A stretch of 64,000 nt of DNA from an uncultured Methanosarcinales archaeon (GTDB lineage Archaea; Nanobdellota; Nanobdellia; Woesearchaeales; GW2011-AR9). Shown one piece after another: positions 6,061 through 22,157 of this stretch. The stretch spans positions 25,794 through 89,793 of the forward strand of contig CAZKIP010000004.1 in the NCBI GenBank assembly GCA_964552945.1, in the 5' to 3' direction. The notes under the pieces were generated by a model. The model was not told the origin of the DNA. It made no database searches and was given only the letters and a program-made list of their open reading frames with translations. Numbering within the stretch: position 1 is the first letter of the stretch; every line of letters starts with the position of its first letter. Position numbers and translations under genes: made by a program.

Positions 6061-6484
6061 ATCCTTCTTTCTTAATGTCTTCTATAAGATAATGCATATT
6101 AAAAGAAACTACTGCGTAATTCTTTTCAAGCAACTCTAAAAAAGTGTCTAGCTCTTTGATATTCTTACAAACCACCTCAGCTATGAAATCCCATCCATTG
6201 TTTGTTTTCTGTAAGGTATTTACATTATTGTGATGTTGCAAAAATAGAAGTAATCTATTTTTGTTTTCATTATCAACTTTCAAAAATACTTGAGCTCTGG
6301 CCCTGTAACCCATTTCATCGAAATTTAAAACAACCGTGTTTTTCTTAATTACACTATTTTGCAGCCCTTTCAGTAAATCGAAGAGGGTTGAAATTGGTAT
6401 GTGCGTTTTTTTGCTGATGGAAGTTAGTTTTGCGCGTGAATTTCTTCGCAAACATTCCAACAATAGCAAGGATTTTTCTTTCAT
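6026..6484 (-). CDS. Lrp/AsnC family transcriptional regulator
   Basis: 152 aa with an N-terminal HTH (LLLLECLRRNSRAKLTSISKKTHIPISTLFDLLKGLQ) and a C-terminal RAM-like domain. Its 3' end overlaps the giant gene convergently. Confidence 0.7.
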   Translation of the reverse strand: MKEKSLLLLECLRRNSRAKLTSISKKTHIPISTLFDLLKGLQNSVIKKNTVVLNFDEMGYRARAQVFLKVDNENKNRLLLFLQHHNNVNTLQKTNNGWDFIAEVVCKNIKELDTFLELLEKNYAVVSFNMHYLIEDIKKEGFSLLGPLSNLQ

Positions 6485-6581
6485 TTCTTTACCTTGCAGG
6501 AGTAACTATAAAAAGAAATATTTAAAAGTTCCGGCCACTTTTTTGAACAAAAAGCAACAACCTTCCTTAATTTATTACAAT

Positions 6582-7550: not shown

Positions 7551-7559
7551 ATTTATAAG
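7550..7559 (+). promoter_or_regulatory. Candidate TATA box
   Basis: aatttataag lies ~25-30 nt upstream of ATG 7583. Confidence 0.35.
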
Positions 7560-7582
7560 GTAGTATTGTTTTATTCCTTACA

Positions 7583-9937: not shown

Positions 9938-11245
9938 TTATTCTTTTTCTAATTTGACATAATCAAAAGTACACTTAGAATTAGAATTACTTTGACAGGT
10001 AAGGTGGACTTTTGTAGGGATCTCTTTTGGAATACACTTTGTTTCAAATCCTTTTGAAGAATTATCAACAAAATAAGTAACTAAAGAACCTTTTTCAACT
10101 CTGAATTTAGTAGTTTGATATTTTGTTAAAGGACCCTCACACCCATTCACTATTTTTTCGCAAGTCTCATTTGAATTTCCGCAAAAGAATGTTTCTGATT
10201 TTGGAATGTAACCAAATGAAACTCCACCTTTGTCACTTGCAACACCTACTCTTACTTTTACTCCTTTATTACTATCAACTTTCCATCTAGCTTCGAATAC
10301 ATAAGTACCATTGCCCAATGTAACTTGTTTTTTGCTTTCTAAGAAACAAGAACCTTTACCATTAACAATTAAGTTTAATTTACCTTCTTCAAAATCATAA
10401 CCTGCTTTACTTCCACATGGTTTCTCTTCCCACCTACCATCCAACTCCTCGCCACTAAAGTCATCGCAAAACAACTCGTCCCCAGAACAACTAAATACCT
10501 CGTCCTTAATCTCTTTACAATTTGCATTCAAAGCATCGTAAGTGTCTTCATCAAAAATGTTCTTAGCCAAACCTCTCTGAACCAACAAAGGCATACCCAA
10601 AGGATTCGCAGGTGTTAACGAAAACCATTTCTTATTTGCAGGCAAATCATCCAATAATCCATGCTCCATCAACCAATCAATTTTATCATAAAAATATTTT
10701 ATCTTCCCCGTTGGATCAAAATAAGAAATTAACTCTACACTTAACTCGCGACCTTTAATTAAAGTTTCAGTAGTATAAATCCCATTACAAATATATTCGT
10801 TCCCAGAAGTCCATTTTAACAAATCATAAACAACTCCTTGAGAATCTTGGTCAAACAAAGTTACTCCCGGAGATGCTTGAACTACCAACTTCTTCTTCCC
10901 AGTTAAAGGAAAAGCCATTACATTATCATACTTTTTAGCAAGAGGAAAAACGGCCATGCCTCCTTTTTCAGAAAGATAAATATCTCCTTTCCTCCATTGA
11001 TATAAAGTTACATCAACACCGGCTTGAGGAGTTCCAGAATCATCAACAACTTCAAGTTCCTGCTCTCCAGAAAAAACTAAACCAGCGGAATCTGTTGTTC
11101 CTTGCAAAATTTTCATCTCTAAATTTTGTTCAACTTCTACAGAAGCATCTGGTTCAACGAACTCATCGGGTTCAGAAGTACCGCAAGCTGGCAAAGCTAC
11201 GCATAATGATAAAAGTCCTCTGAGTAATTTACTTTCCAAACCCAT
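9938..11245 (-). CDS. Secreted protein / putative lipoprotein, function unknown
   Basis: 435 aa. N-terminus MGLESKLLRGLLSLCVALPACG, a signal peptide with a lipobox-like Cys. Lies on the opposite strand inside the surface island. Confidence 0.5.
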   Translation of the reverse strand: MGLESKLLRGLLSLCVALPACGTSEPDEFVEPDASVEVEQNLEMKILQGTTDSAGLVFSGEQELEVVDDSGTPQAGVDVTLYQWRKGDIYLSEKGGMAVFPLAKKYDNVMAFPLTGKKKLVVQASPGVTLFDQDSQGVVYDLLKWTSGNEYICNGIYTTETLIKGRELSVELISYFDPTGKIKYFYDKIDWLMEHGLLDDLPANKKWFSLTPANPLGMPLLVQRGLAKNIFDEDTYDALNANCKEIKDEVFSCSGDELFCDDFSGEELDGRWEEKPCGSKAGYDFEEGKLNLIVNGKGSCFLESKKQVTLGNGTYVFEARWKVDSNKGVKVRVGVASDKGGVSFGYIPKSETFFCGNSNETCEKIVNGCEGPLTKYQTTKFRVEKGSLVTYFVDNSSKGFETKCIPKEIPTKVHLTCQSNSNSKCTFDYVKLEKE

Positions 11246-11319
11246 GGAGAGATAAAAAGGGCCATTTTTTAAAAGACTATCTAAGAAAAGTTTTTATATC
11301 TCGGCAACTTGATTTTAAT

Positions 11320-11997
11320 ATGAAAAAAATAATGGTGTTAGTGTTCTTCCTATTAGCAACCTCAGTAGTAGCACAAGTTTGCTTCTTAGAAAATGAAAGT
11401 TCTTATTATTGTCAAGAAATGGACAAAACTAAAGCCCAATCGATTTGTGAAGACGAATGCCAAATAAAAGAAACTCATTGCTCAACACTTCCAGAATGTC
11501 AACCTGTCTTTTGTCAAGATAATTGTAAAATCACTTTCAAAGGAGTCTGTGCAAAAGAAGTTCCTGCGGGAGAAGAAGCCAATTGTGTTGCACCAATAAA
11601 ACAAGAAGTTAAAGAAGTAAAAGAAGATTCATCAAACTCAGGACTATATTTCGTCATTTTTTTACTAGCGTTAATGGGGGGCATTTTCTGGTTTTTCAAA
11701 AAGCATCATGGAAATAGGACTGCTCAACAACCTCAAGGAGATAGCTGGGCTTCAACAATTATTCCAGAGTCAGAAGAAAGGCTTAATTGGTTAAAAAAAC
11801 AATTTGGAAAAAAGATGAAAAAGAAAAAAAGAGGACAAATTCTTTTCGAATTGGGGATTCCTTTGGACAACAAAACCCATGTTTCAAAATTAAGTAGGAT
11901 GATTAGGGCTCACGAGAATAAAAAGGATAAGAAAAAAGGAAAAACTTTTCATAATTTGGAAAAAATGGCTAGAGACAAATATTTTGGCAAAAAATAG
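11320..11997 (+). CDS. Membrane-anchored Cys-rich protein, paralogous to the N-terminal module of the 2140-aa giant
   Basis: Sec-type signal MKKIMVLVFFLLATSVVAQ. The Cys module CFLENESSYYCQEMDK...ECQ...PECQPVFCQDNCK aligns with CFLYKKASKGVYC...ECKDDC...PECKQVFCDLDC of the next gene. One TM (LYFVIFLLALMGGIFWFF) and a basic cytoplasmic tail. Confidence 0.55.
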   Translation: MKKIMVLVFFLLATSVVAQVCFLENESSYYCQEMDKTKAQSICEDECQIKETHCSTLPECQPVFCQDNCKITFKGVCAKEVPAGEEANCVAPIKQEVKEVKEDSSNSGLYFVIFLLALMGGIFWFFKKHHGNRTAQQPQGDSWASTIIPESEERLNWLKKQFGKKMKKKKRGQILFELGIPLDNKTHVSKLSRMIRAHENKKDKKKGKTFHNLEKMARDKYFGKK

Positions 11998-12015
11998 TAC
12001 TTTCTCTTCGTCGGA

Positions 12016-12027
12016 ATATTTATAAAC
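12016..12027 (+). promoter_or_regulatory. Candidate TATA box
   Basis: atatttataaac lies ~28 nt upstream of ATG 12054. Confidence 0.35.
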
Positions 12028-12053
12028 GTTAAAGGTTTCTTTTAAGGCTGTAG

Positions 12054-15000
12054 ATGAATAAACAAAAAAGAGGGATGTTTATAGTAGTTTTTAGTATATT
12101 TTTATTAGTTCTAGCTATATCAGTTTCTGCGGAAGAAAGTGGATGTTTTCTTTACAAAAAGGCCAGCAAAGGAGTGTATTGTACTTCCGGTATTTTGAAA
12201 TCTGTGGCTGTGAAGGAATGTAAAGATGATTGTGATATTACTAAAGATTTCCAAGAAGGAAAATTATGTAACCTCTTTCCAGAATGTAAACAAGTTTTCT
12301 GTGATTTAGATTGTCTTGAGAAACCCTTGGGTCTTTGTCAAGAAGAAGGAGGTAAAGAACTTTCAGATGACCAATACCAAAGTCAATGTGAAGCGGTTTG
12401 TTGTGTAGAAAAATATCCTAATGTGGACCAACTTGTGTGTAATTATCCTATGACAGAACAGGCATGTAAGGATAAAATAAAAATAAAACCAGGGATTTAT
12501 ACCCCCTACCATATTGCGGGAGGAAGTGAGGAAGATAAAGCAGCCAAATGTCAAATTGATTATTGTAAGGAAAAATTGGCTGAGGGTTCTCTCGAAGGAG
12601 TAATCAAGGATGTAGATGGGCCAGTTTCAGCAACAATTTCTTTAATTGGGAAAGATAAAACAGATTCTTTAGCAGATGGAAAATATTCCTTTCCAAAACT
12701 TGATCCAGGAACATATCCTGTTGAGGTTAGCAAGGAAGGTTATCAAACTGCTCAAGCAACAATTTCTATAGGGATTGGGGAAAAAAAGTCTTACGATTTT
12801 ACTTTAAATAAATTAATTATTGGTGCCATAGTTTCTGGAGTGGTTAAAGATGCTCAAGGACAACTTGTTGATGGTGCTACAGTTCTTTGGAAAGGGACTT
12901 CAATTACAGGGTCAACAACCACTTCTGCAGGAGGTAAGTTTTCTGCAAATTTACCAGAAGGGAAGTTTACTTTTACGGCTAATAAAGTTGGTTTTGAACA
13001 AGGTAGCAAGGAACTTGCGGTAATAAAAGGCACAAATAAAATAGAATTGATTTTAACGGGAACTCCAAAAACAATTTTGTCAGGAACGGCATTTTTAGAT
13101 AAGAATTCTGATAACAATTTGGATGCAAATGAAAAAACACCGGCGGTACAAATTTTTATTGATGGGAAACTTAGAGCAAGTTCACAATATGAACCTTTGG
13201 CAACTTATAGCATCGTTATGGATTTACAGAAAGATGAAGAACAACATTCCATTTCAGCAACTTATCTGAATGGTGAGTATGTTTTTGGACCAAAATCTTT
13301 TAAAATTACTAAAGCAGGTTTACAATATGATGTTCTTCTAAAAAAACTTGTAGGAGTATGTACGGCCGATGGTACCGATCCACAAAAAAAGGTTGATACT
13401 CTTAATTTAAATCATCTCCCTGGAGAGATAGGAGTTAAGCTTTCTTGGATAAAACCTTGTCCAGAAGTTGAAGGGTATGAAGTTGAAAGGAAAGGAGCAG
13501 AGGGGAAAACTAAAAAATTCATCTTTAATGGAGCAGAGAACTCTTATGTTGATAAGGAAGGATTAGAGTGGTTAGAAACTTATGAATATAAAATAAGGGC
13601 AGTTTACAAAGATGGAGGAATAAAATATTCAGATTATTCTCCTTCAAAATCAATCAAATTGGGTCAAAAGGAATGTGAAGGAAGGTACCTAAAAGATTGG
13701 GAAACTTTTTGTGAACCACATGCTCCTTACCAAGCAAATCAAATTTATACTTGTAGTAACAACAACGTTATTATTCCTGCTAAAAACTGTCCTCCGGGAT
13801 TGTTATGTGCACCATCAAACGATCCAAGAAAAGCAACTTGTATGGGCACAGATGCCTGTTTTGCTGACTTAGGACTTTTTGGACTACAAAGTACTGCCAA
13901 TCAATGTTATGGGATTAAAGATAAAGGAGATTCTCCTAAAAACTTCTGTTACTATGACCAAACTCATACGATTGTAGACTCTTGTAAAGTATGTTTAGAA
14001 TTGGAAAGTTGTTTTGATTACAAGAGTAAGGGGGCGTGTGAAATAAACAATTGTTTAACAAAACCTTGTGAATGGGTAGATGCAGCTTCAAACAAAGAAG
14101 TTCTTGACTATAGTCAAATTTTCAAAGGCTATGATAAAGATTCTTTGCTAACTACTAAGGAAACGGGCGCAGGGTATTGTATCGAAGAAAAATACGATAA
14201 CGATGATAAATGTTCTTTATGTAGTTCTTCAGCATCTCTTTTGGAAAATTTTTATTGTACTGCTGAAGTATGTACTGGTTTAGGAAGATGTTTCTCTAAT
14301 CCTCCTTATTTGGGAAAAGGGGCTTTATCTTCATGTAATGAATGTGGAGAAAGTCCTGCGAAAAATACAAATTGTTATACTTATGGAAGTAAATTGGAAT
14401 GTGAAGGAGAATCTCCTGTAAACATGGATATTAAGGGAAAGATTATTCCTTCTGCTGACAATTGTAATTGGGGAACTTGCAGATGGATAGGTAACAATAA
14501 AGATGGAAAGTGTGTTAAGGATGCGGATGTTGACAAACAAGTTACCGATGATTGTCAAGGTTTTAAAGGAGCAGACAAGGATTTATGTAAGAGCGACAAC
14601 ACTCCTCCAAAAACTTCCATTGTGGGAGATTTTACTTTTACGGTTTCTTCTGTGAACACCAATGTAACTTTAGAAGGAGATGAAAGTATTAACAAAAAGG
14701 GATGGCAAGGAAATCATTTGGGAGTGGCAGGAATTTGTTTAACCAGTGCTAGTTCTGACAAATGTTTGATGGAAAATTTTGTTAAAAAGCCTTATCCTGG
14801 TTTAAAATTTAAGGAAGAAGTTACTTTAAATCTTTATGAACAGTTGAAAGATAAAAAAATAGATGGAGAAATTTATCTCTTAAAATATTTCTCACAAGAC
14901 AGGTATTTCAACCAAGAAAATGTTCAAGAAGCGCAGATTTATGTTGATAACGTCCCTCCAGAATTTACAATTAAATCCACAAAAAAGACCCTTGGTGATA

Positions 15001-18000
15001 CGACTGATTTAAGTGTGTTTTTAGAAGATCTTAGCGAAGCAATGTCTTGTGACTTTGAACTAACTCCTCTACTGCCTTTGGGAACTAAAGTGAATAAAGC
15101 TGTTTCCATTACTGAACAAAAAATGGTTTCATTCCCTGGGTTAAAAGTGGTTAGGGCGGATGTAAAGGTTACTTGTAAAGATTCTTTGGGTAATGAAAAT
15201 AGTAAAAATAAAACATTTGTTTTTGATTTAGAAAAGAGAATAGAAATCTTATCACCAGAACTTGAGAGCATTCTTAGTAAAACCACTTTAACATTTGAAG
15301 TTAAGACCACTATAGATGCAACTTGTTCTTTATTCAATCAAGCTAAGAATCAGAAAGTTGCTGATTTCAAAGCTTCTTCAGATTTAAAAATTCACAAAAC
15401 AGATGCAATCCCTGGTTTCATTGAAGGTGATTATTCCGCTTCTCACAAAGTAATTTGCACAGACGTTGTTACTCAAGGAACTATGGAAGATTTCTTTAAT
15501 TTTAGGGTTGATTTCACTCCACCAAACACAGAAATTATTTTGAAAGAGGGTAAAAGGGTTGAGAAACCAGTGAAGTATGGATGGGAAGAATTTTTTGTTA
15601 AAGATGTGGAAGTAACCCTCTCTTGTAAGGCAGATGGCTTTTCTTGTGAAAAAAGATTTTATTGTTTAGGAAAAGGATGTGGACTAAAGTCCACGGGGAA
15701 ATTCGTAGAGTATACCGCTCCCTTTAAAGTAGATAAAACAACGAGTATCTGCTATTTCTCAAAAGATAAATCGGGGAATGAAGTTGTTCAGCCCTTCTGT
15801 GGAAAAATTATTGTTGAAGGTTATGGTTTAATTTTGGAAAGTCCTCCAATTAAAATGTTCGAAGATGAAATATGGGGAATAAGTAACAAACCACAATTTG
15901 AATTAAGGTTTACAACAAAAGTTTCTTCAAAAATATGTAAGTTAGGGTTGAGTGAAGGGTTTGATTACGATAAAGTTGATTTAGATAGAGTTTTGGAAGG
16001 GAAGGGAGGAAAATATATTTTTCCCAATTTCCCTAGCGGTTCCCTTGGTGCTTACCCCGAAAAAGGAGGAGTAAAAACCTTATATGTTGTTTGCGAAGCA
16101 GGTGATGGAGGGCTTAGTCCTGAACATGTCGTTCATATAGAGTATGACCCCTCTGCGCCAGAAATAATTGATCAAGGAGCTGAACCAAATAAAATTTTGA
16201 AAGAAAAAACAACTCGTTTATTTGCAACTACTGATGATAAAACCTTTTGCAGATATAGTGATAATTCTGCTGGAGATGGAAGTAGCGATTATTTAACAAT
16301 GGAATATTCGTTTCCAGGACAAGATAAAAATACTTTGTTCAAGAAACATGAGCAACATTACTCTATTTCATTTGTAGGTCTGAAGAAAGATTATTTGTTT
16401 AATGTTCAATGTAAAAATGGGGCAGACGATTTTTCAAAAGTTGAAGAGATTAAATTCGAAGTTGATTACACGGAAGAAAGTAAAAATGATGAAAAAAATG
16501 ATGATGGGACAGATAAAGTTACTGAAGGTTTTATCCTTAAAGCATCTCCTCAAGGAGGATATCTTCAAGGAACTTCCGCAAACTTATTTGTAGAAACCAG
16601 TAAAAATGCAATTTGTAGATATAAGCTAGGTAGCGAATACCAAAACTTTAATGTTACCGGAGAAAAAATTCATACTTCCACTTTGTTAAGCTTACCAGAT
16701 AAGGATTATCTAATCCCAGTAAGTTGCATAATGGGAAAGAAGACCGCTACAGCTTTACTTTCTTTTACCATAGACACAACTGCTCCAAGTGTGATCTCAG
16801 TAGAGGATGGGAATTATACTTGTGGAAGTAAGGAATGGTCAGTGATGGTGGAAACAAGCGATAACAATATTTCTGGTTATTATTACGAAATTTATGATAA
16901 TGGATTAATTCCTAGCGTTGCTTACAAAAAGATTTATGGTGAACAAAAATCAACTCAACTTGGAAGCGGGTATACGGGATACTATTCAATTTATGAAACT
17001 TTTTCAGAAAAGAATTATTCAAAGTTTTTAACAAATAAAAGTAAAGAAATTCAGAAGGGGGTCGTTTACAACAAATCTGTTGGTCCAACTTTGCCCTTAT
17101 CTATTCCAGTTTCAGAATTTAAAGAAGACCACATTTATTATACTAAAGTTTGGACATGGGATGCGGTCAAAAACCAAGGAAATCCTAAAGAGAGTGATGG
17201 TATTGCGGTTGTGCAAGAAAACTCTTCATTTTGTGTAACCACGAAAGAAAATAATGTGGCTCCAAAAGTAGATTATGTGGTTAATGATTCAAGTTGTTTG
17301 AAAACGGTAGTTAAATTGAAATGTTCTAGTCCAACTGGATGTAAGAGTATTGAGTATGGCATTTCTACTGCTTCATCAGAATGTCAAGCAAATAAATCTT
17401 ACAATGGAAAAAATTTGCTTATTAAAGGAAAGAAATGGGTTTGTTACACTGCTTCTGATTATACGGGAATTAATGTGAGTGGCAAAAAGTTGTTTACTTA
17501 TGTTGATCAGGATGGAGACAGTGTTAGAGACAAAAAAACTTGTGATCTTTGTTTAAAGACACCTGCTGGAAAAATAGTTGGTAACGATGGTTGTTCATTA
17601 GAACAGTTGACAGATGAAGAAGCTGGAAAAGACGAAGATAAAGATGGTTTGCCAGATTCTTGGGAAAAATTAAGATCTCGAGAAGGGTGCTTGTTAAGTC
17701 CGTTCAGTAAAGATTCAGATGGTGACGGAGTAGATGATGCAACTCAAGATTATGATGATGATGGAAGGAGTAATCTGCAAGAATACTACGCTGGTACAGA
17801 TCCTTGTGTAAAAGACGATGACTTTTTCAGTGATGATCTTTACAAATTTGATGAAGAAGAAGATGAAAAGAAAGTTGATGACAAAAAGAAGGACGATAAG
17901 AAAAAACCAACTACGGGAGTTTCAACTACAAAAGAAAAGGAAGAAGAATCTATCCTAGCTTTAATATTGATGTTAATAGGTCTTCTACTTATCCTTGGTG

Positions 18001-18476
18001 GAACTGGTTATTTAGTTTATTATTACTTATATTCTCCGCAGTCTAAAAAAGGAGAAACAGGGTTTGTAAGAACGGAACCAACAAAACAAGCGGTACAAAA
18101 ACCAGCAACTTTCAAAGAGAAATTCTTCGCTTGGAAGAAAAAAGACACTATTGAGAAATCTAAAGAGAAAAAGAGAAAATCGTTGTTTGGACAATTTTCA
18201 AAGTCTTCTTCAAGCATTCCTCCATTAGAAAAAGCTTTGAAGGGGAAAGGTTCTGACTTATCTCGTTTAGGTAACTTAGCACAACATTATTCCGAACATA
18301 AGGAGGAAATTAGGCCTGGGTTAAGGAAAGAAGAGAAAAATGTTTTTTCTAAATTGGACAAGATAGCTGGAAAAACAAAGGATAAAAAAATCCATGAAGT
18401 TGTTAGTAAGGATGAAGCAAAAGATATTTTTGGAAAGTTGAAAGATATCAGCAAAAAGAGAAAGAAAAGAAAATGA
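12054..18476 (+). CDS. Giant cell-surface protein (2140 aa) with a class III-like N-terminus, CarboxypepD_reg-like and FN3-like repeats, Ca-binding DxDxDG motifs, and a C-terminal TM plus Lys-rich tail
   Basis: N-terminus MNKQKRGMFIVVFSIFLLVLAISVSA. Two GVIKDVDGP...GKYSF...GTYPVEV-type repeats, and FN3-like LSWIKPCPEVEGYEVERK...YEYKIRAVY. DSDGDGVDDATQDYDDDG near the C-terminus. TM ILALILMLIGLLLILGGTGYLVYYYLY is followed by a ~170-aa K-rich tail. Confidence 0.65.
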   Translation: MNKQKRGMFIVVFSIFLLVLAISVSAEESGCFLYKKASKGVYCTSGILKSVAVKECKDDCDITKDFQEGKLCNLFPECKQVFCDLDCLEKPLGLCQEEGGKELSDDQYQSQCEAVCCVEKYPNVDQLVCNYPMTEQACKDKIKIKPGIYTPYHIAGGSEEDKAAKCQIDYCKEKLAEGSLEGVIKDVDGPVSATISLIGKDKTDSLADGKYSFPKLDPGTYPVEVSKEGYQTAQATISIGIGEKKSYDFTLNKLIIGAIVSGVVKDAQGQLVDGATVLWKGTSITGSTTTSAGGKFSANLPEGKFTFTANKVGFEQGSKELAVIKGTNKIELILTGTPKTILSGTAFLDKNSDNNLDANEKTPAVQIFIDGKLRASSQYEPLATYSIVMDLQKDEEQHSISATYLNGEYVFGPKSFKITKAGLQYDVLLKKLVGVCTADGTDPQKKVDTLNLNHLPGEIGVKLSWIKPCPEVEGYEVERKGAEGKTKKFIFNGAENSYVDKEGLEWLETYEYKIRAVYKDGGIKYSDYSPSKSIKLGQKECEGRYLKDWETFCEPHAPYQANQIYTCSNNNVIIPAKNCPPGLLCAPSNDPRKATCMGTDACFADLGLFGLQSTANQCYGIKDKGDSPKNFCYYDQTHTIVDSCKVCLELESCFDYKSKGACEINNCLTKPCEWVDAASNKEVLDYSQIFKGYDKDSLLTTKETGAGYCIEEKYDNDDKCSLCSSSASLLENFYCTAEVCTGLGRCFSNPPYLGKGALSSCNECGESPAKNTNCYTYGSKLECEGESPVNMDIKGKIIPSADNCNWGTCRWIGNNKDGKCVKDADVDKQVTDDCQGFKGADKDLCKSDNTPPKTSIVGDFTFTVSSVNTNVTLEGDESINKKGWQGNHLGVAGICLTSASSDKCLMENFVKKPYPGLKFKEEVTLNLYEQLKDKKIDGEIYLLKYFSQDRYFNQENVQEAQIYVDNVPPEFTIKSTKKTLGDTTDLSVFLEDLSEAMSCDFELTPLLPLGTKVNKAVSITEQKMVSFPGLKVVRADVKVTCKDSLGNENSKNKTFVFDLEKRIEILSPELESILSKTTLTFEVKTTIDATCSLFNQAKNQKVADFKASSDLKIHKTDAIPGFIEGDYSASHKVICTDVVTQGTMEDFFNFRVDFTPPNTEIILKEGKRVEKPVKYGWEEFFVKDVEVTLSCKADGFSCEKRFYCLGKGCGLKSTGKFVEYTAPFKVDKTTSICYFSKDKSGNEVVQPFCGKIIVEGYGLILESPPIKMFEDEIWGISNKPQFELRFTTKVSSKICKLGLSEGFDYDKVDLDRVLEGKGGKYIFPNFPSGSLGAYPEKGGVKTLYVVCEAGDGGLSPEHVVHIEYDPSAPEIIDQGAEPNKILKEKTTRLFATTDDKTFCRYSDNSAGDGSSDYLTMEYSFPGQDKNTLFKKHEQHYSISFVGLKKDYLFNVQCKNGADDFSKVEEIKFEVDYTEESKNDEKNDDGTDKVTEGFILKASPQGGYLQGTSANLFVETSKNAICRYKLGSEYQNFNVTGEKIHTSTLLSLPDKDYLIPVSCIMGKKTATALLSFTIDTTAPSVISVEDGNYTCGSKEWSVMVETSDNNISGYYYEIYDNGLIPSVAYKKIYGEQKSTQLGSGYTGYYSIYETFSEKNYSKFLTNKSKEIQKGVVYNKSVGPTLPLSIPVSEFKEDHIYYTKVWTWDAVKNQGNPKESDGIAVVQENSSFCVTTKENNVAPKVDYVVNDSSCLKTVVKLKCSSPTGCKSIEYGISTASSECQANKSYNGKNLLIKGKKWVCYTASDYTGINVSGKKLFTYVDQDGDSVRDKKTCDLCLKTPAGKIVGNDGCSLEQLTDEEAGKDEDKDGLPDSWEKLRSREGCLLSPFSKDSDGDGVDDATQDYDDDGRSNLQEYYAGTDPCVKDDDFFSDDLYKFDEEEDEKKVDDKKKDDKKKPTTGVSTTKEKEEESILALILMLIGLLLILGGTGYLVYYYLYSPQSKKGETGFVRTEPTKQAVQKPATFKEKFFAWKKKDTIEKSKEKKRKSLFGQFSKSSSSIPPLEKALKGKGSDLSRLGNLAQHYSEHKEEIRPGLRKEEKNVFSKLDKIAGKTKDKKIHEVVSKDEAKDIFGKLKDISKKRKKRK

Positions 18477-19021
18477 TGTTTGGAAAAAAAGGGATGGGTA
18501 TTGCACAGGCTTTTATTTTTATAGTTGTAGCTTTGACTTTCGCATTAATTATGATTTTTGGGTTTAAAGCAGTACAAGATTTTTTGGATAAAGGAGAAAA
18601 GGTAGTCTTTTTACAATTTAAAAATGATTTGGAAACTTCAGTGAAACAAATCTACACCAACTATGGGGCCGTAAGAATTAAAGATTTCCGAGCACCTGGC
18701 CAATATGAAAAGATTTGTTTTGTTAACATGGACATTAAACCCACTGAAGAGGATTTAGATGAACTCTTTCAGGAAGATTTCTATGCTAGTGAAGTATGGA
18801 GAGAAGCTTGGAGTAGAGACGATGTTACGGGAATTAAGGCTGTGGAAGAAAATGTTTTCCTTTCACCTAAAGTAGATACTATTCAAATGAAGATTCACAA
18901 AATCAAAATTTATGGAGAAAAGAATGAAGGATTTCTTTGTACAAAAATTGAAAAAGGATCTTTTCGTCTAGTCCTTGAAGGTAAAGGGGATAGTACGGAA
19001 TTATCCCTTCCCGAGCCTTGA
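18473..19021 (+). CDS. Pilin-like protein (class III signal)
   Basis: MMFGKKGMGIAQAFIFIVVALTFALIMIFG. Overlaps the upstream giant gene as ATGA. Confidence 0.5.
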   Translation: MMFGKKGMGIAQAFIFIVVALTFALIMIFGFKAVQDFLDKGEKVVFLQFKNDLETSVKQIYTNYGAVRIKDFRAPGQYEKICFVNMDIKPTEEDLDELFQEDFYASEVWREAWSRDDVTGIKAVEENVFLSPKVDTIQMKIHKIKIYGEKNEGFLCTKIEKGSFRLVLEGKGDSTELSLPEP

Positions 19022-19023
19022 TA

Positions 19024-20082
19024 ATGTTTAAAAAAGCCCAGATGCAGATTGGATTTAATTGGATTTTTGTTTTGATAGCTGGGGCGGTAATTTTACTTTT
19101 TTTTGTAGGTATTGTGGTTAAACAGCAACAAGTTTCTGAAGAAAATTTAGCAAGAGATATTGTAGGAACGATGGATTCAATATTTACTGCAGCTAGAGTT
19201 TCGGATAAAACTAAGAATGTAATTCCACTAAGAGGGTTAGAGAAAGAAATTTTATTGTTTAGTTGTGAGGATAGTGTTACCGAATTCTCGTTAAAAGACC
19301 AACCATTTAGGGAGCAGAATAATATTGACCCCCTTTTTTCGCCAAATGAAATAAAATCTTCAGAATTATTTTTAATAAGTTTGCCTTACAATTTACCCTA
19401 TAAAACTCTTGATTTTTTAATGCTAACTTCTCCAAGTGTGAAATATGTTTTGATTGGTAAAAAGGACTTGCCTTTTGTAGAAGAATTTCTTAATCAAACG
19501 GAAGGATTTAATGTAAAATATTTGCCAGAAGCCAAGTATGCTAAGTTGGACATAACTAGGGAGCTTCAGTTAAAAATTATTGATTTAGAAGGAGGCTTGA
19601 TTGTGGAAGGAGCCAAAGTTCCAGGAATTTTCGATGTGCTTGCAGATAAAAATGTTCGAGCAGTTTCTTTTTCAGGAAACCAGATTACTTATTATCAGAG
19701 GGAAGGAGATAGTTGGGCTTCTATGCATCAAGAACCTTTGCCTTTAATCTCTGTGGGAGGAGAGAGAGATGCCGCCAAATATGCCGCTATATTTGCTCAT
19801 GATGATTTGAATTATTGGTGTAACATGCAGAAGGCTTTCAACAGAATTTCTTTTGTTGATGAAATTTATCGTCAAAAAATAAAAGAGATGCTTCTGTATT
19901 ATGATAAAACAAAAAGTTCTTCCTGTGCTTCTGATACAAAATCTCTTTCTAAATCCTTAGAGGTTCATCAGGGACAAGCAGATATTTGTGAAAGGGATTC
20001 CTGTTCCGGATTTGTTGAAGAATCTAAGAAAATAAGAGAAACTAACCAGTTTTTGAAAGAATGTGAGATTCAATTATATTAA
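19024..20082 (+). CDS. Pilin-like protein (class III signal), 352 aa
   Basis: The tracked ORF starts at TTG 19018. The ATG at 19024 gives MFKKAQMQIGFNWIFVLIAGAVILLFFVG. Confidence 0.55.
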   Translation: MFKKAQMQIGFNWIFVLIAGAVILLFFVGIVVKQQQVSEENLARDIVGTMDSIFTAARVSDKTKNVIPLRGLEKEILLFSCEDSVTEFSLKDQPFREQNNIDPLFSPNEIKSSELFLISLPYNLPYKTLDFLMLTSPSVKYVLIGKKDLPFVEEFLNQTEGFNVKYLPEAKYAKLDITRELQLKIIDLEGGLIVEGAKVPGIFDVLADKNVRAVSFSGNQITYYQREGDSWASMHQEPLPLISVGGERDAAKYAAIFAHDDLNYWCNMQKAFNRISFVDEIYRQKIKEMLLYYDKTKSSSCASDTKSLSKSLEVHQGQADICERDSCSGFVEESKKIRETNQFLKECEIQLY

Positions 20083-20088
20083 ATAAAA

Positions 20089-20583
20089 ATGAAATTAAGC
20101 AAGAAAGCTCAAATAAGGATGACTGAAACAGTCTCGGTCTTATTCATTTTTTTTATTTTGGTAGCTTTTGGGATGCTTTTTTATGGGAAATATCAGGAAG
20201 GTGCAGTACTTGAGAAGGAAGAAGAGTTATTTGTTAAAAAAGCTCAAGATATTACCACTAAGCTGATTTATCTTCCCGAAATTGCTTGCACTAGAGGAGA
20301 TTCAGAGGCGGAAGCATTTTGTTTTGATTTGATGAAGTTAAGATCTGCCGGACAGGTGTTAGAAGATGATTACTATTTTGACATATTTTCATTTGCAAGA
20401 ATTACAATTAACCAAACTTATCCTAAAAAAGAGGAAGACATAATTATTTATGAAAGGCTTCCCAATGAAATTAAGAAAATCACCCCTTCAAGGTTTATAG
20501 TAGCTTTGAAAGATCAAAGTGAAGGAATTAATGGTGTTTCTTCATACCATTTTGGATTTGTTAAGGTGGAGGTTTTTTCATGA
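20089..20583 (+). CDS. Pilin-like protein (class III signal)
   Basis: MKLSKKAQIRMTETVSVLFIFFILVAFGMLFYG. Confidence 0.55.
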   Translation: MKLSKKAQIRMTETVSVLFIFFILVAFGMLFYGKYQEGAVLEKEEELFVKKAQDITTKLIYLPEIACTRGDSEAEAFCFDLMKLRSAGQVLEDDYYFDIFSFARITINQTYPKKEEDIIIYERLPNEIKKITPSRFIVALKDQSEGINGVSSYHFGFVKVEVFS

Positions 20584-21107
20584 ATCTCTTCTTTAAAAAA
20601 GGCCAGATGGAGATGGTTGGTTTGGTAGTTATCGTTATTCTTATTACGTTAGGGTTACTTTTTATGACCATTTTTGCTTTACAAAACGATGATAAGAAGG
20701 TTTTTACTCAGAAAGGGATAGCTGCTAGTACGATGGCTGCTTTAATGAAAACCACCATTTATGATTGTAATCAACCTAAACTTTCGTTAGAAAAAAAACT
20801 TCTTGATGATTGTGCAAAAAATCACGGGTTGCCAGAAGATTTATTTGAGTTTCATTGCGATGCTAAAAATAGTTGTGATTATTTAGAAGGGAAAATAACC
20901 GCTTTACTGAACGAAAGTTTGGGAAGGTGGGGTTTTCGTTACCAATATGAATCTACAGTTGTCCAAGGAGACGCGATTATTGGACCAATCGTTTCTTCCA
21001 GAGGAGGATGCGCTGCTAAAAAGATAGGGAGGGAAACCTCTAATCCATTCTTTCTTTCAGATGGGAAGGGAAGGTTGGTTAGAAGCGAATTATTCATCTG
21101 TGGATAG
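20580..21107 (+). CDS. Pilin-like protein (class III signal)
   Basis: MNLFFKKGQMEMVGLVVIVILITLGLLFM. ATGA overlap with the upstream gene. Confidence 0.6.
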   Translation: MNLFFKKGQMEMVGLVVIVILITLGLLFMTIFALQNDDKKVFTQKGIAASTMAALMKTTIYDCNQPKLSLEKKLLDDCAKNHGLPEDLFEFHCDAKNSCDYLEGKITALLNESLGRWGFRYQYESTVVQGDAIIGPIVSSRGGCAAKKIGRETSNPFFLSDGKGRLVRSELFICG

Positions 21108-21186
21108 TTGAAGATTTAGCAAAATTTATATAGGTTTATCTCTTTTTAAAAGGTAAATCGATATTTAAAAAACGAGGTGTAAAATT

Positions 21187-21537
21187 ATGTTTTCGAAAAA
21201 AGGTCAAGGTCTTTCATTAAATGTGATAATTATCGCGGCTTTAGCTCTGATAGTTCTGGTTGTTTTAGCAGCAGTTTTTATTGGTAGAATCACACCGGTA
21301 GGAGAAGATGTTGAAAGAGTAGGCAACACTGAATTGGTTAAAATGAAGCTTAAATATGGGACTTGCCATCCTAACGACGCAGAAGCGAACTCTTTTGTAA
21401 GTTCTTTTGGTCTAGCAGGATCTCCTGAAGATGGAGAGAAAGTTAAAGTTGAATTTAGTAATAAAATAAGTGATTGTAAAGAATTCAATGATGATCAGAA
21501 AAGTTGTGAAGCTTCTGGTGGATGTAGCTGGAAATAA
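21187..21537 (+). CDS. Pilin-like protein (class III signal), 116 aa; possible major subunit
   Basis: MFSKKGQGLSLNVIIIAALALIVLVVLAAVFIG. Has its own upstream AT-rich promoter-like region and a GAGGTG SD. Confidence 0.6.
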   Translation: MFSKKGQGLSLNVIIIAALALIVLVVLAAVFIGRITPVGEDVERVGNTELVKMKLKYGTCHPNDAEANSFVSSFGLAGSPEDGEKVKVEFSNKISDCKEFNDDQKSCEASGGCSWK

Positions 21538-21539
21538 AG

Positions 21540-21851
21540 ATGAATAAATCTTTTTTTTCTTTCCTTTTTGGGAAGAAAGCCTTAGCGAACATTTGGTGGA
21601 TTATTATTGGTGCAGTTCTGGCTTTAGTGGTTTTGATAGTTATATTACTTATTTTTACAGGAAAAACGACTCCCTTAGAACAAGGGTTACTTGATTGTGA
21701 AAGCAAAGGTGGACAATGTTTAAAGAAAGACGATTGTCTTAGCAAAAAGTACGATGGAACTGTCTCTTCAGCATTCGAATGCAGCGAGGGGAATGTTTGT
21801 TGTTTCACTCTTTTCAAAGAGACAGATAAAAAAGATTCGGATAATAAATGA
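21540..21851 (+). CDS. Pilin-like protein with a Cys-containing C-terminus
   Basis: MNKSFFSFLFGKKALANIWWIIIGAVLALVVLIVILLIF. C-terminus CESKGGQCLKKDDCLSKK...CSEGNVCCF. Confidence 0.5.
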   Translation: MNKSFFSFLFGKKALANIWWIIIGAVLALVVLIVILLIFTGKTTPLEQGLLDCESKGGQCLKKDDCLSKKYDGTVSSAFECSEGNVCCFTLFKETDKKDSDNK

Positions 21852-21870
21852 AAATATCAATAATAAAAAG

Positions 21871-21996
21871 ATGGTTTTTTCCAAGAAAGCACAGCTGATT
21901 ACCAAGGAAGCACTTTTGATTACTTTAGCGATTATTCTTTTTTTGTTGGTTTTTTATTTAGTGGTTGTTGAACCATTTATTTCAATAGGGATTTAA
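21871..21996 (+). CDS. Mini pilin-like protein (41 aa: signal plus helix only)
   Basis: MVFSKKAQLITKEALLITLAIILFLLVFYLVVV. In-frame ATG inside tracked ORF 21754..21996. Confidence 0.4.
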   Translation: MVFSKKAQLITKEALLITLAIILFLLVFYLVVVEPFISIGI

Positions 21997-22031
21997 AGAT
22001 GATAAATAGATGTTTATGTAATAAAAAGGGA

Positions 22032-22157
22032 ATGGCAAGATGGTTCTTAGCTTTTCTAATCCTTGCTTTAGTATTTTTAATTATGATGACGGTTTGGTTT
22101 GTTGCTTTGAAGGGGAATTTGGATTTTTTTTTTGATAAAATATTGGATTGGTTTTAA
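22032..22157 (+). CDS. Possible small single-TM protein (41 aa)
   Basis: MARWFLAFLILALVFLIMMTVWFVALKGNLDFFFDKILDWF. Not in the ORF track because it is under 60 aa. Fills the gap within the operon. Confidence 0.25.
   Translation: MARWFLAFLILALVFLIMMTVWFVALKGNLDFFFDKILDWF

What the first reader, a model, noticed from the sequence alone, without database searches (positions are those of the whole stretch)
12054..18476. The 2140-aa giant combines a prepilin-like N-terminus with a C-terminal TM anchor and a ~170-aa lysine-rich cytoplasmic tail
Prepilin-like proteins are normally anchored only by their N-terminal helix. Here a second TM (ILALILMLIGLLLILGGTGYLVYYYLY) near residue ~1960 is followed by a long, highly basic, low-complexity tail (KKVDDKKKDDKKK...KKRKKRK). 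That implies either a bitopic topology with both ends anchored, or proteolytic release of the ectodomain. The basic tail could interact with nucleic acid, with an intracellular partner, or with the negatively charged membrane surface.
Basis: seen in the sequence. Interest (0 to 1): 0.6.

Follow-up and report, generated by a model that had tools for sequence, protein, structure and literature searches.

The report
Membrane-anchored giant archaeal surface protein
This is a real, widely conserved 2,140-residue surface protein of Woesearchaeota (tiny DPANN archaea), held in the membrane by one C-terminal helix, and its lysine-rich "tail" is a conserved, folded domain inside the cell that is also found in the small neighbouring gene.

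Summary
The ORF (12054-18476, +) is real. It has two membrane-grade hydrophobic segments, at residues 8-26 and 1967-1993, and a basic C-terminal tail of 147 aa (net +23).

Three details in the finding are wrong:
- The tail is 147 aa, not about 170.
- The quoted KKVDDKKKDDKKK lies before the TM, on the outside.
- The tail is not low-complexity. It is conserved in 66 of 152 family representatives and in 54 long ORFs among 58 Woesearchaeota/Nanoarchaeota loci. AlphaFold2 models it confidently as a linker, a basic helix and a helical domain (pLDDT 90-97). It has no Pfam or PDB match.

The tail domain is also found in the adjacent 225-aa mini-paralogue (hhalign E 4.9e-13).

The N-terminus carries a strictly conserved K-R-G (43 of 45 genomes). 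In other respects it behaves like a cleavable Sec signal:
- An AxA-type site lies just before the conserved Cys-rich domain.
- The paralogue has a plain Sec signal.
- The hydrophobic region is less conserved than the mature protein, the opposite of seven pilin-like neighbours.

Best reading: a type I membrane protein that couples a ~1,940-aa ectodomain to a cytoplasmic docking domain. It sits in a collinear ~27-kb cluster of pilin-like genes. Anchoring at both ends is less likely, and an assembly artefact is excluded.

The parts
12054..18476 (+). Gene for the 2140-aa giant surface protein (stop codon included)
   Evidence: ORF list and translation. An identical protein is in public collections on 2-4 contigs, including an independent Logan assembly. 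The family has 511 representatives at E<=1e-3.
12054..12074 (+). Signal-peptide n-region MNKQKRG carrying the family-conserved K-R-G motif
   Evidence: KRG is present in 62 of 91 family representatives and in 43 of 45 GTDB genome loci. It occurs in about 1 of 26 members of the paralogous ORF225 family (Fisher p 9e-16).
12075..12131 (+). Hydrophobic h/c-region MFIVVFSIFLLVLAISVSA, ending in the predicted SPase I site VSA|EE
   Evidence: KD peak 2.80. An AxA-like site lies 0-8 aa before the conserved G-C-[YFC] across the family. The region is less conserved than the mature protein (0.29 against 0.40), unlike the pilin-like neighbours. Cleavage itself is inferred, not shown.
12132..12578 (+). N-terminal Cys-rich domain (starts EESGCFLY...), the distal tip if the protein is type I
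   Evidence: Homologous to the ectodomain of ORF 11320-11997 (BLASTP E 5e-7). The GC[FY]xYPxSxxLYC start is conserved in both families.
12579..13058 (+). Two CarboxypepD_reg (Ig-like beta-sandwich) domains
   Evidence: Pfam PF13620, E 2.8e-23, two stretches; also PF13715.
13671..17453 (+). Family-defining ectodomain core: Cys-rich region followed by beta-rich repeats bounded by D-x-[TS]-[PA]-P motifs. No Pfam assignment.
   Evidence: All 78 Cys align with the 78 Cys of orthologue P0002. The profile of residues 540-1600 retrieves 138 representatives at E<1e-30. The repeat nature is read from the sequence only.
17496..17828 (+). Acidic DxDxDG-type (thrombospondin-type-3-like) putative Ca-binding repeats ending ...NLQEYYAGTDPC
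   Evidence: Seen in the sequence and conserved in P0002 and family members. Pfam TSP_3 was not detected at E<=0.1, so the label is an inference.
17829..17951 (+).
   Evidence: Lies before the TM. In the family this linker is 18-93 aa, rich in D/E/P/S/T, and has no conserved motif.
17952..18032 (+). C-terminal transmembrane helix ILALILMLIGLLLILGGTGYLVYYYLY with the conserved GGxGYLxYYY motif
   Evidence: KD peak 2.62. G, Y, L, Y and Y are invariant in 30 diverse members. AF2 helix with pLDDT about 95. The motif was used to find 58 genome loci.
18033..18110 (+). Cytoplasmic flexible linker (residues 1994-2019)
   Evidence: Variable in alignments A3 and A4. AF2 pLDDT 52-58.
18111..18188 (+). 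Conserved basic helix (FKEKFFAWKKKDTIEKSKEKKRKSLF) ending in the invariant LFGxF motif
   Evidence: F88 and F91 are invariant and R84 nearly so. AF2 helix at fragment residues 63-88, pLDDT 83-88. Retained even in the truncated orthologue P0002.
18219..18473 (+). Conserved C-terminal all-alpha cytoplasmic domain (IPxL...HKEEIxPGL...EKxIFxKLxxIA...SKDEAKDIFxKLKxISKKRK)
   Evidence: Found in 66 of 152 family representatives, always at the extreme C-terminus, and in 54 long ORFs in GTDB loci. AF2 pLDDT 90-97 with a 30-sequence alignment. No Pfam or PDB match.
11320..11997 (+). ORF225 mini-paralogue: plain Sec signal, the same Cys-rich domain, a TM and a homologous cytoplasmic tail
   Evidence: Orthologues lie upstream of the giant in 27 of 58 loci. 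Tail-profile comparison by hhalign gives probability 97.9%, E 4.9e-13.
18473..21851 (+). Six downstream co-oriented genes with class-III-like N-termini (KKG/KKA + Q/M + long conserved hydrophobic helix): 18473-19021, 19018-20082, 20089-20583, 20580-21107, 21187-21537, 21540-21851
   Evidence: Translations. The same order is present in 43-55 of 58 loci. N-terminal helices are more conserved than the rest of each protein. The first gene overlaps the giant's stop codon (ATGA).
727..27919 (+). The whole conserved collinear cluster: 1777-aa protein, 784-aa class-III-like protein, (minus-strand ORF), ORF225, the giant, then about 14 pilin-like or membrane proteins
   Evidence: ORF census. tblastn synteny table over 58 Woesearchaeota/Nanoarchaeota loci.

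Best explanation
The ORF encodes a genuine, lineage-wide giant cell-surface protein of Woesearchaeota (DPANN archaea) with type I membrane topology.

Proposed path, step by step:
1. A Sec-type signal peptide takes the N-terminus across the membrane. It is unusual in carrying a strictly conserved K-R-G in its n-region. It is most likely removed by signal peptidase I at VSA|EE (inferred).
2. About 1,940 residues lie outside the cell (shown by composition and by conservation of all 78 Cys). In order, these are a Cys-rich tip domain, two CarboxypepD_reg domains, Cys-rich and beta-rich repeats, acidic DxDxDG repeats and a variable charged stalk.
3. One sequence-conserved helix (GGxGYLxYYY) anchors the protein in the membrane.
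4. The last 147 residues are cytoplasmic. They form a structured module: a flexible linker, a conserved basic helix ending in LFGxF, and a helical domain of about 85 aa.

The same cytoplasmic module sits on the small paralogue encoded just upstream, which displays only the tip domain. The tail therefore most likely acts as an intracellular docking or organising domain. It would tie the two co-encoded surface proteins to a cytoplasmic or membrane-proximal partner, positioning or regulating the surface apparatus specified by the surrounding ~27-kb cluster of pilin-like genes. The partner and its effect are inferred and not identified.

The conserved KRG may be a targeting or processing mark inside a Sec signal. 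It is functionally comparable to the YSIRK-G/S motif of Gram-positive surface proteins. This is an analogy from general knowledge only.
For: Anatomy: there are two and only two TM-grade segments, and the charges fit the positive-inside rule.

Archaeal origin: archaeal RNase P RNA, RadA, eRF1 and RPA are in the window. The 58 related loci are all Woesearchaeota/Nanoarchaeota MAGs.

Evidence that the N-terminus is a Sec signal:
- An AxA-type site lies 0-8 aa before the conserved G-C-[YFC] in essentially all 91 full-length representatives.
- 24 of the 91 lack any G/A after the basic residues yet keep the same c-region and the same mature start.
- The paralogous ORF225 family (26 members) has plain Sec signals followed by AxA|x-GCF, and its domain is homologous to the giant's first domain.
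- The (-3,-1) rule is met just before the first polar residue in 43 of 93 giants against 3 of 21 pilin-like neighbours (p 0.007).
- The span from G+1 to the AxA site is mostly 17-25 aa (range 16-35; 19 in this protein), against 24-28 hydrophobic residues in the neighbours.
- The h-region identity is 0.29, below the 0.40 of the mature part. In seven pilin-like neighbours it is above (ratios 1.17-1.86).

Evidence on the tail:
- Fragments P0013-P0019 share 41-64% identity over the whole tail.
- The tail HMM hits 66 of 152 representatives, always at the C-terminus.
- The 30-sequence alignment has 17 invariant positions.
- AF2 gives mean pLDDT 86, and 90-97 over the distal domain.
- Homology with the ORF225-family tails is supported by hhalign at 97.9% probability, E 4.9e-13 and by HMM hits down to E 7.7e-6.

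Context: collinear synteny in up to 55 of 58 species.

Literature: a Sec signal plus a C-terminal TM anchor preceded by a stalk is an established archaeal surface-protein topology (PMC3387779, PMC6098224).
Against: - K-R-G at the n/h boundary is conserved in 43 of 45 genomes. That is stricter than the equivalent motif in the neighbouring pilin-like genes and about 25-fold more frequent than in the paralogue. A plain Sec signal does not explain this.
- The gene lies in a cluster in which almost every other exported protein has a class-III-like N-terminus.
- No signal-peptide predictor (SignalP, DeepTMHMM) could be run, and no cleavage has been observed.
- Two orthologues (P0002, P0030) lack the distal tail domain, so it is dispensable in some lineages.
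- No type-IV-filament ATPase, platform or prepilin peptidase gene lies in the window. The link between this protein and a filament machine therefore rests on gene order alone.
Confidence: 0.6

Rival explanations
1. The protein is a true class III (prepilin-type) substrate. A prepilin peptidase cuts after K-R-G, and the N-terminal helix is retained. It either stays in the membrane, so both ends are anchored and the ectodomain forms a giant loop, or it is inserted into a pilus-like fibre built from the downstream pilin-like proteins while the C-terminus tethers that fibre to the cell.
For: - KRG is conserved in 43 of 45 genomes and 62 of 91 representatives.
- It is far more frequent than in the paralogue (p 9e-16).
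- Gene order with at least six pilin-like genes directly downstream is conserved in 43-55 of 58 species.
- N-in/C-in is topologically self-consistent.
- Large adhesin-like proteins, and non-pilin proteins with class III signals, are known in archaeal type-IV-filament loci (bioRxiv 10.64898/2026.04.22.720090; PMC3387779).
Against: - The helix after KRG is the least conserved part of the protein, the opposite of seven neighbouring pilin-like proteins.
- The hydrophobic span is only 19 aa and is followed at once by an AxA site and a disulfide-rich domain. There is no amphipathic helix extension.
- The +1 residue is variable and hydrophobic, whereas Q/M is conserved in the neighbours.
- 24 of 91 family members and nearly all paralogues lack the G/A altogether.
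- No pilin or class III model in Pfam or NCBIfam matches. This is weak evidence, because the neighbours do not match either.
Confidence: 0.22
2. The C-terminal TM is only a temporary anchor. The ectodomain is released by proteolysis in the stalk or within the membrane. The TM-plus-tail stub then remains as a signalling or regulatory fragment, in the manner of regulated intramembrane proteolysis.
For: - The TM contains a conserved helix-weakening GGxG motif.
- An M50/S2P-type peptidase is encoded in the window at 48810-50003.
- Partial release of a C-terminally anchored archaeal enzyme by an unknown mechanism is documented (PMC3387779).
Against: - There is no conserved motif in the stalk, which varies in length from 18 to 93 aa and in sequence.
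- No PGF-CTERM, LPXTG or other sorting-signal model matches, and a 147-aa tail is incompatible with sortase or archaeosortase tripartite signals (PMC6098224).
- M50 peptidases are ubiquitous housekeeping genes, and this one is not linked to the cluster.
- This reading is compatible with the best explanation rather than opposed to it.
Confidence: 0.1
3. The tail is a non-specific polycationic appendage. It would be low-complexity and disordered, sticking to anionic lipids or nucleic acid simply through charge.
For: - The tail is 24% Lys with net charge +23 and ends KKRKKRK.
- The proximal linker is poorly conserved and is modelled with low confidence.
Against: - 17 positions are invariant and 15 nearly invariant. 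Many of them are hydrophobic or Pro/Gly/His rather than basic.
- AF2 gives pLDDT 90-97 over a multi-helix domain.
- Homology is retained in a second protein family at E 4.9e-13.
- The distal tail shows in-frame coding bias.
Confidence: 0.05
4. The tail, or the whole C-terminal extension, is a frameshift or assembly artefact.
For: - One ENA contig (L003) does show a frameshift inside the TM region.
- One orthologue (P0002) ends 84 aa earlier.
Against: - An identical protein appears in an independent assembly.
- The reading frame is supported by codon bias, with stops in the other frames.
- The same C-terminal domain occurs in-frame in 54 long genomic ORFs and 66 family representatives.
- In L003 the tail is intact in the shifted frame, so that contig, not the window, carries the error.
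Confidence: 0.01

Closest known systems
Sec-dependent archaeal surface proteins anchored by a C-terminal transmembrane segment (Sulfolobales S-layer subunit SlaB; oligopeptide-binding proteins and alpha-amylase of Saccharolobus solfataricus)
   Same: An N-terminal signal peptide with an SPase-I-type site, a large extracellular part, a stalk or linker before a single C-terminal TM helix, and basic residues inside (PMC3387779 and PMC6098224).
   Different: - No sequence homology was detected.
- Those anchors are followed by only a few residues. This one is followed by a 147-aa conserved, folded cytoplasmic domain.
- The TM sequence here is itself conserved.
- The signal peptide carries a conserved KRG.
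- The protein is 2-4 times larger and contains 78 conserved Cys.
Archaeal class III (type IV prepilin-like) signal-peptide proteins, including non-pilin substrates such as the Saccharolobus bindosome sugar-binding proteins, and bacterial modular pilins
   Same: A short basic leader ending in [KR]-G directly before a hydrophobic stretch, and a genomic location among many pilin-like genes.
   Different: - The hydrophobic stretch is short and poorly conserved, and it ends in an AxA site.
- A second TM anchor with a cytoplasmic domain is present. To my knowledge this has not been described for any pilin-like protein.
- No pilin model matches.
Large adhesin-like, Ig-fold-rich proteins encoded in archaeal type-IV-filament (TFF) loci (bioRxiv 10.64898/2026.04.22.720090)
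   Same: A very large, beta-sandwich-rich extracellular protein co-encoded with several pilin-like proteins. The presumed role is in adhesion, recognition or envelope organisation.
   Different: - Those loci contain the ATPase and platform genes. This cluster and the 64-kb window do not.
- The paper does not describe a C-terminal TM with a conserved cytoplasmic domain.
- Membership of any of its arCOGs was not tested.
YSIRK-G/S motif signal peptides of Gram-positive surface proteins (general knowledge, not checked in the library)
   Same: A short, strictly conserved motif embedded in an otherwise ordinary cleavable Sec signal peptide of large surface proteins, thought to direct where or how the protein is secreted.
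   Different: A different motif, a different domain of life and no homology. It serves only as an analogy for how a conserved KRG could coexist with SPase I cleavage.
Eukaryotic type I adhesion receptors (integrin or cadherin type), a functional analogy only
   Same: A modular Ca-binding/Ig-like ectodomain, a single TM, and a structured cytoplasmic tail that docks intracellular partners.
   Different: No homology. No evidence here for a cytoskeletal or signalling partner.

Membership tests
Archaeal type IV pilin-like / class III signal-peptide proteins | Short basic leader ending in [KR]-[GA] immediately before the hydrophobic segment | tested here: met
   MNKQKRG|MFIVV. KRG is present in 43 of 45 genome orthologues and 62 of 91 representatives.
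Archaeal type IV pilin-like / class III signal-peptide proteins | A retained N-terminal hydrophobic helix that is the best-conserved part of the protein and continues into a long alpha-1 helix | tested here: not met
   Identity over the 20 aa after KRG is 0.29, against 0.40 for the next 150 aa (ratio 0.73). Seven neighbouring pilin-like families give ratios of 1.17-1.86. The hydrophobic span is 19 aa, followed by VSA|EESGC.
Archaeal type IV pilin-like / class III signal-peptide proteins | No other membrane anchor, so the subunit can be extracted into a filament | tested here: not met
   A conserved C-terminal TM at residues 1967-1993 with a cytoplasmic domain.
Archaeal type IV pilin-like / class III signal-peptide proteins | Match to a curated pilin, archaellin or class III signal model | tested here: inconclusive
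   No Pfam or NCBIfam hit for the N-terminus. The obviously pilin-like neighbours give no hit either, so the test has no power here.
Archaeal type IV pilin-like / class III signal-peptide proteins | Cleavage by a prepilin peptidase (PibD/ArlK/EppA type) | not testable with these tools
   This needs biochemistry or proteomics. No peptidase A24 gene is in the window.
Sec/SPase I type I membrane (C-terminally TM-anchored) archaeal surface proteins | Tripartite signal peptide with small residues at -3/-1 just before the mature domain | tested here: met
   VSA|EE in this protein. An AxA-like site lies 0-8 aa before the conserved GC[YFC] in all 91 representatives examined. Such sites are enriched relative to the pilin-like neighbours. 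The paralogue family has the same c-region behind plain Sec n-regions. No dedicated predictor was run.
Sec/SPase I type I membrane (C-terminally TM-anchored) archaeal surface proteins | A single C-terminal TM preceded by a stalk, with the positive charge on the C-terminal side | tested here: met
   KD peak 2.62. The 120 aa before the TM have net charge -22 and the tail +23. The stalk is variable and rich in D/E/P/S/T.
Sortase / archaeosortase / exosortase C-terminal sorting signals (LPXTG, PGF-CTERM, PEP-CTERM and others) | Signature motif + TM + a short basic cluster at the very C-terminus | tested here: not met
   No NCBIfam sorting-signal model matches the last 340 aa. There is no conserved motif before the TM. 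The TM is followed by 147 aa and not by a few residues.
CarboxypepD_reg-containing large repetitive surface proteins | Pfam PF13620/PF13715 domains above the gathering threshold | tested here: met
   82.5 bits against a cutoff of 32.3, two stretches at about residues 180-330. This covers under 8% of the protein and does not define its family.
The Woesearchaeota giant-protein family defined here (no public name found) | Ectodomain core (profile A2), GGxGYLxYYY TM, C-terminal tail domain (profile A4), and a position upstream of the p182-p354-p164-p175 genes | tested here: met

The most novel reading that the evidence does not exclude
The giant and its mini-paralogue are the transmembrane coupling elements of an undescribed surface apparatus found across Woesearchaeota. 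The apparatus is encoded by one collinear ~27-kb cluster of two giant proteins plus at least 12 pilin-like proteins, with no dedicated ATPase nearby. In this reading the conserved KRG really is a prepilin-peptidase site. The giant is then both processed like a pilin and tethered through its C-terminal TM. Its new cytoplasmic helical domain transmits information or force between a host-contacting fibre and the inside of the DPANN cell. This would be an archaeal counterpart of an adhesion receptor with inside-out or outside-in coupling.
Probability: 0.15. Interest if true: 0.85.

Novelty: new variant of a known kind. Interest (0 to 1): 0.6.

Why it matters
Woesearchaeota are abundant, uncultured, small-genome DPANN archaea presumed to live attached to other cells. 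How they build their surface and contact partners is unknown.

This work turns one odd-looking ORF into a defined family:
- There are hundreds of representatives.
- 58 GTDB species genomes gave a locus (one each in this scan).
- Gene context is fixed.
- The membrane helix is conserved.
- The protein carries a new, confidently modelled cytoplasmic domain that it shares with a second co-encoded surface protein.

Prokaryotic surface proteins anchored by a C-terminal helix normally have almost nothing on the inside. A conserved folded tail implies specific coupling between the outside and the cytoplasm, and this is directly testable by pull-downs, AF-multimer screens and cryo-ET of enrichments.

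The family also poses a clear question in signal-peptide biology: why is a K-R-G, the prepilin-peptidase motif, nearly invariant in what otherwise behaves as a cleavable Sec signal?

Tried and rejected
1. The word-index homology search with the full protein found only one true orthologue and suggested an orphan. The exhaustive HMMER search showed this was a sensitivity artefact.
2. The first profile job failed because the profile exceeded 1,200 positions. It was repeated with a shorter region.
3. A direct BLAST or HMM comparison of the window's ORF225 tail with the giant's tail was not significant (E 1.7; E 0.29). Homology became clear only at the profile-profile level.
4. Pfam, NCBIfam and PDB-sequence searches of the tail, the N-terminus and the neighbours found nothing meaningful.
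6. The FlaFind-type regular expression for class III signals, recalled from memory, was considered and dropped. The source paper was not held, and the evidently pilin-like neighbours would fail the pattern too.
7. Literature searches for a description of this cluster or family in Woesearchaeota/DPANN found none. Absence from the open-access library is not proof of novelty.
8. My automatic SPase-site picker often chose the G of the G-C motif rather than the upstream AxA. Its site-to-Cys distances should therefore not be over-read. The listed sequences themselves show the AxA sites.
9. Sortase or archaeosortase processing, a low-complexity tail and an assembly artefact were each considered and rejected. 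See the rival explanations.

Full report
OBSERVATION

The ORF at 12054..18476 (+) is present and encodes 2,140 aa. A Kyte-Doolittle scan with a 19-residue window finds only two membrane-grade segments. These are residues 8-26 (MFIVVFSIFLLVLAISVSA, 2.80) and 1967-1993 (ILALILMLIGLLLILGGTGYLVYYYLY, 2.62). The next best window scores 1.32.

The N-terminus reads MNKQKRG followed by the hydrophobic stretch. The sequence after the second segment is 147 aa with 36 K and 7 R (net +23, 24% Lys against 12% overall). It ends KKRKKRK.

Three details of the finding need correcting:
- The tail is 147 aa, not about 170.
- The quoted KKVDDKKKDDKKK lies before the TM (about residues 1940-1955), in the external stalk.
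- As shown below, the tail is not low-complexity.

ORGANISM AND CONTEXT

The window is archaeal. It contains archaeal RNase P RNA, RadA with an HHH domain, eRF1 and RPA. GC content is about 34%.

Almost every ORF between 7.5 and 28 kb starts with K-[KR]-[GA] followed by a long hydrophobic stretch. This is the hallmark of archaeal class III (prepilin-like) signal peptides. It applies to 7583, 18473, 19018, 20089, 20580, 21187, 21540, 24398, 24655, 25311, 25718, 26191 and 26759.

No type-IV-filament ATPase, platform protein or prepilin peptidase gene is found anywhere in the 64 kb.

Just upstream, ORF 11320-11997 (225 aa) is a miniature of the giant. It has a plain Sec signal (MKKIMVLVFFLLATSVVA|Q) and a Cys-rich domain homologous to the giant's residues 27-98 (E 5e-7). 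These are followed by a TM and a basic tail.

THE FAMILY

The word-index search found one full-length orthologue, P0002 (34% identity, 96% coverage). All 78 cysteines of the two proteins align, as expected for a disulfide-rich extracellular protein.

An exhaustive HMMER search was run with a two-sequence profile of residues 540-1600. It returned 511 cluster representatives at E<=1e-3 and 138 at E<1e-30. More than 50 of them are full-length proteins of 2,000-2,300 aa with the same layout.

A scan of one genome per GTDB species used the conserved TM motif [GS]GxGYL[VI]Y[YF]Y. It gave 58 confirmed loci, all from Candidatus Woesearchaeota, Nanoarchaeota or Nanoarchaeia MAGs. Some carry the evidently wrong label 'uncultured Methanosarcinales'.

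A tblastn synteny table shows one collinear cluster: big1777, g784, (ORF225), giant, p182, p354, p164, p175, p116, p103, x412, x338, (p92), p219, p135, p157, (p198), p386. For example, p182 follows the giant in 55 of 58 loci, p354 in 54, p164 in 52 and p175 in 49. ORF225 precedes it in 27. The giant is therefore a core component of a conserved ~27-kb surface-protein cluster (window 727-27919).

THE C-TERMINAL TM AND TAIL

A search with the TM plus tail alone found seven short ENA fragments (P0013-P0019). They are 41-64% identical over the whole tail, including the distal 85 aa.

An HMM of five tails hits 66 of 152 family representatives, always ending within 0-4 residues of the C-terminus in close members. 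An HMM built from giants only hits 54 long ORFs in the genome loci.

The exceptions are instructive:
- P0002 ends just after the basic helix (..FGKSK*), with only 71 nt before the next gene.
- P0030 is similarly truncated.
- ENA contig L003 has a frameshift inside the TM region, but its tail is intact in the shifted frame.

A 30-sequence alignment (A4) shows invariant G19, Y29, L30, Y32 and Y34 in the TM (GGxGYLxYYY). In the tail, F88, F91, S95, I98, P99, L133, E137, F141, L144, F169, L172 and R179 are invariant. Many of these are hydrophobic or Pro and not Lys.

AlphaFold2 with this alignment gives mean pLDDT 86. Its elements are:
- a TM helix (protein residues about 1960-1993, pLDDT about 95);
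- a poorly defined linker (52-58);
- a 26-residue basic helix (2020-2045, 83-88);
- a compact multi-helix domain (2056-2138, 90-97).

The earlier 6-sequence model agreed in outline.

Codon-usage scoring supports the annotated frame over the distal tail (+0.36 against -0.5, with stops in the other frames). An independent Logan assembly carries the identical protein. The frameshift or assembly hypothesis is excluded.

The external segment between the last DxDxDG repeat (..GTDPC) and the TM is 18-93 aa long. It is acidic, rich in Pro/Ser/Thr, and has no conserved motif. No sortase, archaeosortase or exosortase signal is detected, and a 147-aa tail is incompatible with such tripartite signals (PMC6098224).

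A SHARED CYTOPLASMIC MODULE

The window's own ORF225 tail is not significantly similar to the giant's. However, ORF225 orthologues in other genomes are hit by the giant-only tail HMM (best E 7.7e-6). A profile-profile comparison of 25 ORF225-family tails with the giant tails gives 97.9% probability and E 4.9e-13 over 112 columns.

Two adjacent genes therefore share both the outermost Cys-rich domain and the cytoplasmic tail domain. The giant differs by about 1,800 inserted extracellular residues and by its conserved TM sequence.

IS THE N-TERMINUS PREPILIN-LIKE?

For:
- K-R-G sits at the n/h boundary in 62 of 91 full-length representatives and in 43 of 45 genome loci.
- It occurs in only about 1 of 26 members of the ORF225 family (p 9e-16).
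- The genomic neighbourhood is pilin-like.

Against:
1. Essentially every family member has an AxA-type site (VSA|E, ISA|Q, LRA|E, VFA|E and so on) at the end of the hydrophobic stretch. It lies 0-8 residues before the conserved G-C-[YFC] that opens the mature domain.
2. 24 of 91 members have no G/A after the basic residues but keep the same c-region and the same mature start.
3. The paralogue family uses plain Sec signals in front of the same domain.
4. The span from G+1 to the AxA site is mostly 17-25 aa (19 in this protein). The neighbours have 24-28 hydrophobic residues that run on into an amphipathic helix.
5. The (-3,-1) rule is met immediately before the first polar residue in 43 of 93 giants against 3 of 21 neighbours (p 0.007).
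6. The +1 residue is variable and hydrophobic, whereas the neighbours keep Q or M.
7. Most tellingly, the 20 residues after [KR][GA] are less conserved than the following 150 residues in the giant (0.29 against 0.40). In all seven pilin-like neighbour families they are more conserved (0.55-0.77 against 0.38-0.52). That is the signature of a disposable signal peptide in the giant and of a retained structural helix in the neighbours.

I conclude that the N-terminus is most likely a cleavable Sec signal with an unexplained, specifically conserved KRG. Class III processing is not excluded (about 0.2).

MECHANISM (shown against inferred)

Shown:
- the domain order;
- the two hydrophobic segments;
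- the charge asymmetry;
- conservation of the Cys residues, the TM and the tail;
- homology of the tail with the paralogue;
- the conserved gene order.

Inferred:
- Sec export and SPase I cleavage at A26|E27;
- type I topology, with the Cys-rich tip distal and the DxDxDG repeats and stalk proximal;
- the conserved TM engaging in specific intramembrane contacts;
- the tail acting as a cytoplasmic docking or organising domain common to the giant and its mini-paralogue. This would link the surface apparatus encoded by the cluster to an unidentified intracellular or inner-leaflet partner.

The basic helix next to the membrane could bind anionic lipids or nucleic acid. The folded distal domain argues for a protein partner.

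COMPARISON WITH KNOWN SYSTEMS

The overall topology matches Sec-dependent, C-terminally TM-anchored archaeal surface proteins such as SlaB, oligopeptide-binding proteins and an alpha-amylase (PMC3387779, PMC6098224). Those proteins lack a cytoplasmic domain.

Large adhesin-like proteins in archaeal type-IV-filament loci are known (bioRxiv 10.64898/2026.04.22.720090). That paper does not report this architecture, and those loci include the assembly ATPase.

The protein fails two tested defining features of pilin-like proteins: a conserved retained helix and the absence of a second anchor. I therefore do not file it as a pilin.

No paper describing this family or cluster was found.

VERDICT

- The 'prepilin-like' label is probably misleading.
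- The 'low-complexity tail' is a new conserved cytoplasmic domain.
- The gene belongs to a conserved Woesearchaeota surface-apparatus cluster.

Novelty: a new variant of a known kind (a type I anchored archaeal surface protein). Interest: 0.6.

Noticed in passing
window 727-27919 (+), and loci L006-L063: A collinear cluster of about 27 kb and about 20 genes is conserved in order and strand across 58 Woesearchaeota/Nanoarchaeota species genomes. It holds two giant proteins, one 784-aa class-III-like protein, the ORF225 mini-paralogue and about 14 small pilin-like or membrane proteins. No filament ATPase, platform or prepilin peptidase lies nearby in this window. I found no description of it in the literature library.
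   Followed up: partly
window 727-6060 (+): A second giant ORF of 1777 aa (likely start MKRGVFLVVLVV... a few codons downstream of the listed TTG). It has a KRG-type N-terminus, no C-terminal TM and no Pfam hit. Homologues sit at the upstream edge of the cluster in at least 21 loci.
   Followed up: partly
window 21187-21537 and 21540-21851 (+): Two very small pilin-like proteins (116 and 103 aa). Their N-terminal helices are extremely conserved across species (KKGQGLSLNVIIVAALALIVLVVL; [KR][GA]-x-ANMWWIIIGAVIALVVM). Identity after the cleavage motif is 0.77 and 0.64. They are candidates for the major fibre subunits.
   Followed up: partly
L003 about 2380-2900 (ENA contig k141_386279): The orthologous giant is split by a frameshift inside the TM-coding region. 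The complete tail domain continues in another frame and was called as a separate 81-aa gene (P0018). This is most likely a sequencing or assembly indel in that contig.
   Followed up: yes
L001 9880-10063 (P0002, Logan SRR22387810): This orthologue ends right after the basic helix (..FGKSK*) and lacks the about 85-aa distal tail domain. Only 71 nt separate it from the next gene. P0030 is similarly truncated. The distal domain is therefore dispensable in some lineages.
   Followed up: partly
loci L006, L009-L011, L023, L026, L027 and others: Many TPA MAGs titled 'uncultured Methanosarcinales archaeon' carry this Woesearchaeota-type cluster. Their taxonomic labels are probably placeholders or errors.
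   Followed up: no
window 29581-29991 (+): A 136-aa ORF whose N-terminal half reads like a cold-shock/OB-type domain (by eye; it was not scanned against Pfam). It is followed by a long acidic tandem repeat, (PAEEA/PAEET) in about 12 copies.
   Followed up: no
window 9938-11245 (-): The only minus-strand gene inside the cluster region (435 aa). It starts with a lipobox-like ...LSLCVALPAC|G, has no Pfam hit and is not conserved in the 58 related loci (0 tblastn hits). It may be a lineage-specific insertion between g784 and ORF225.
   Followed up: partly
window 63529-63867 (-): Archaeal RNase P RNA (Rfam RF00373, 138.9 bits). No tRNA genes were detected in the 64 kb.
   Followed up: yes
window 31261-32730 and 37984-40284 (+): Two PEP-utilising proteins lie 5 kb apart. 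One is a full PPDK/PEP-synthase-like enzyme of 766 aa. The other is a 489-aa protein in which only the C-terminal mobile domain is recognised.
   Followed up: no
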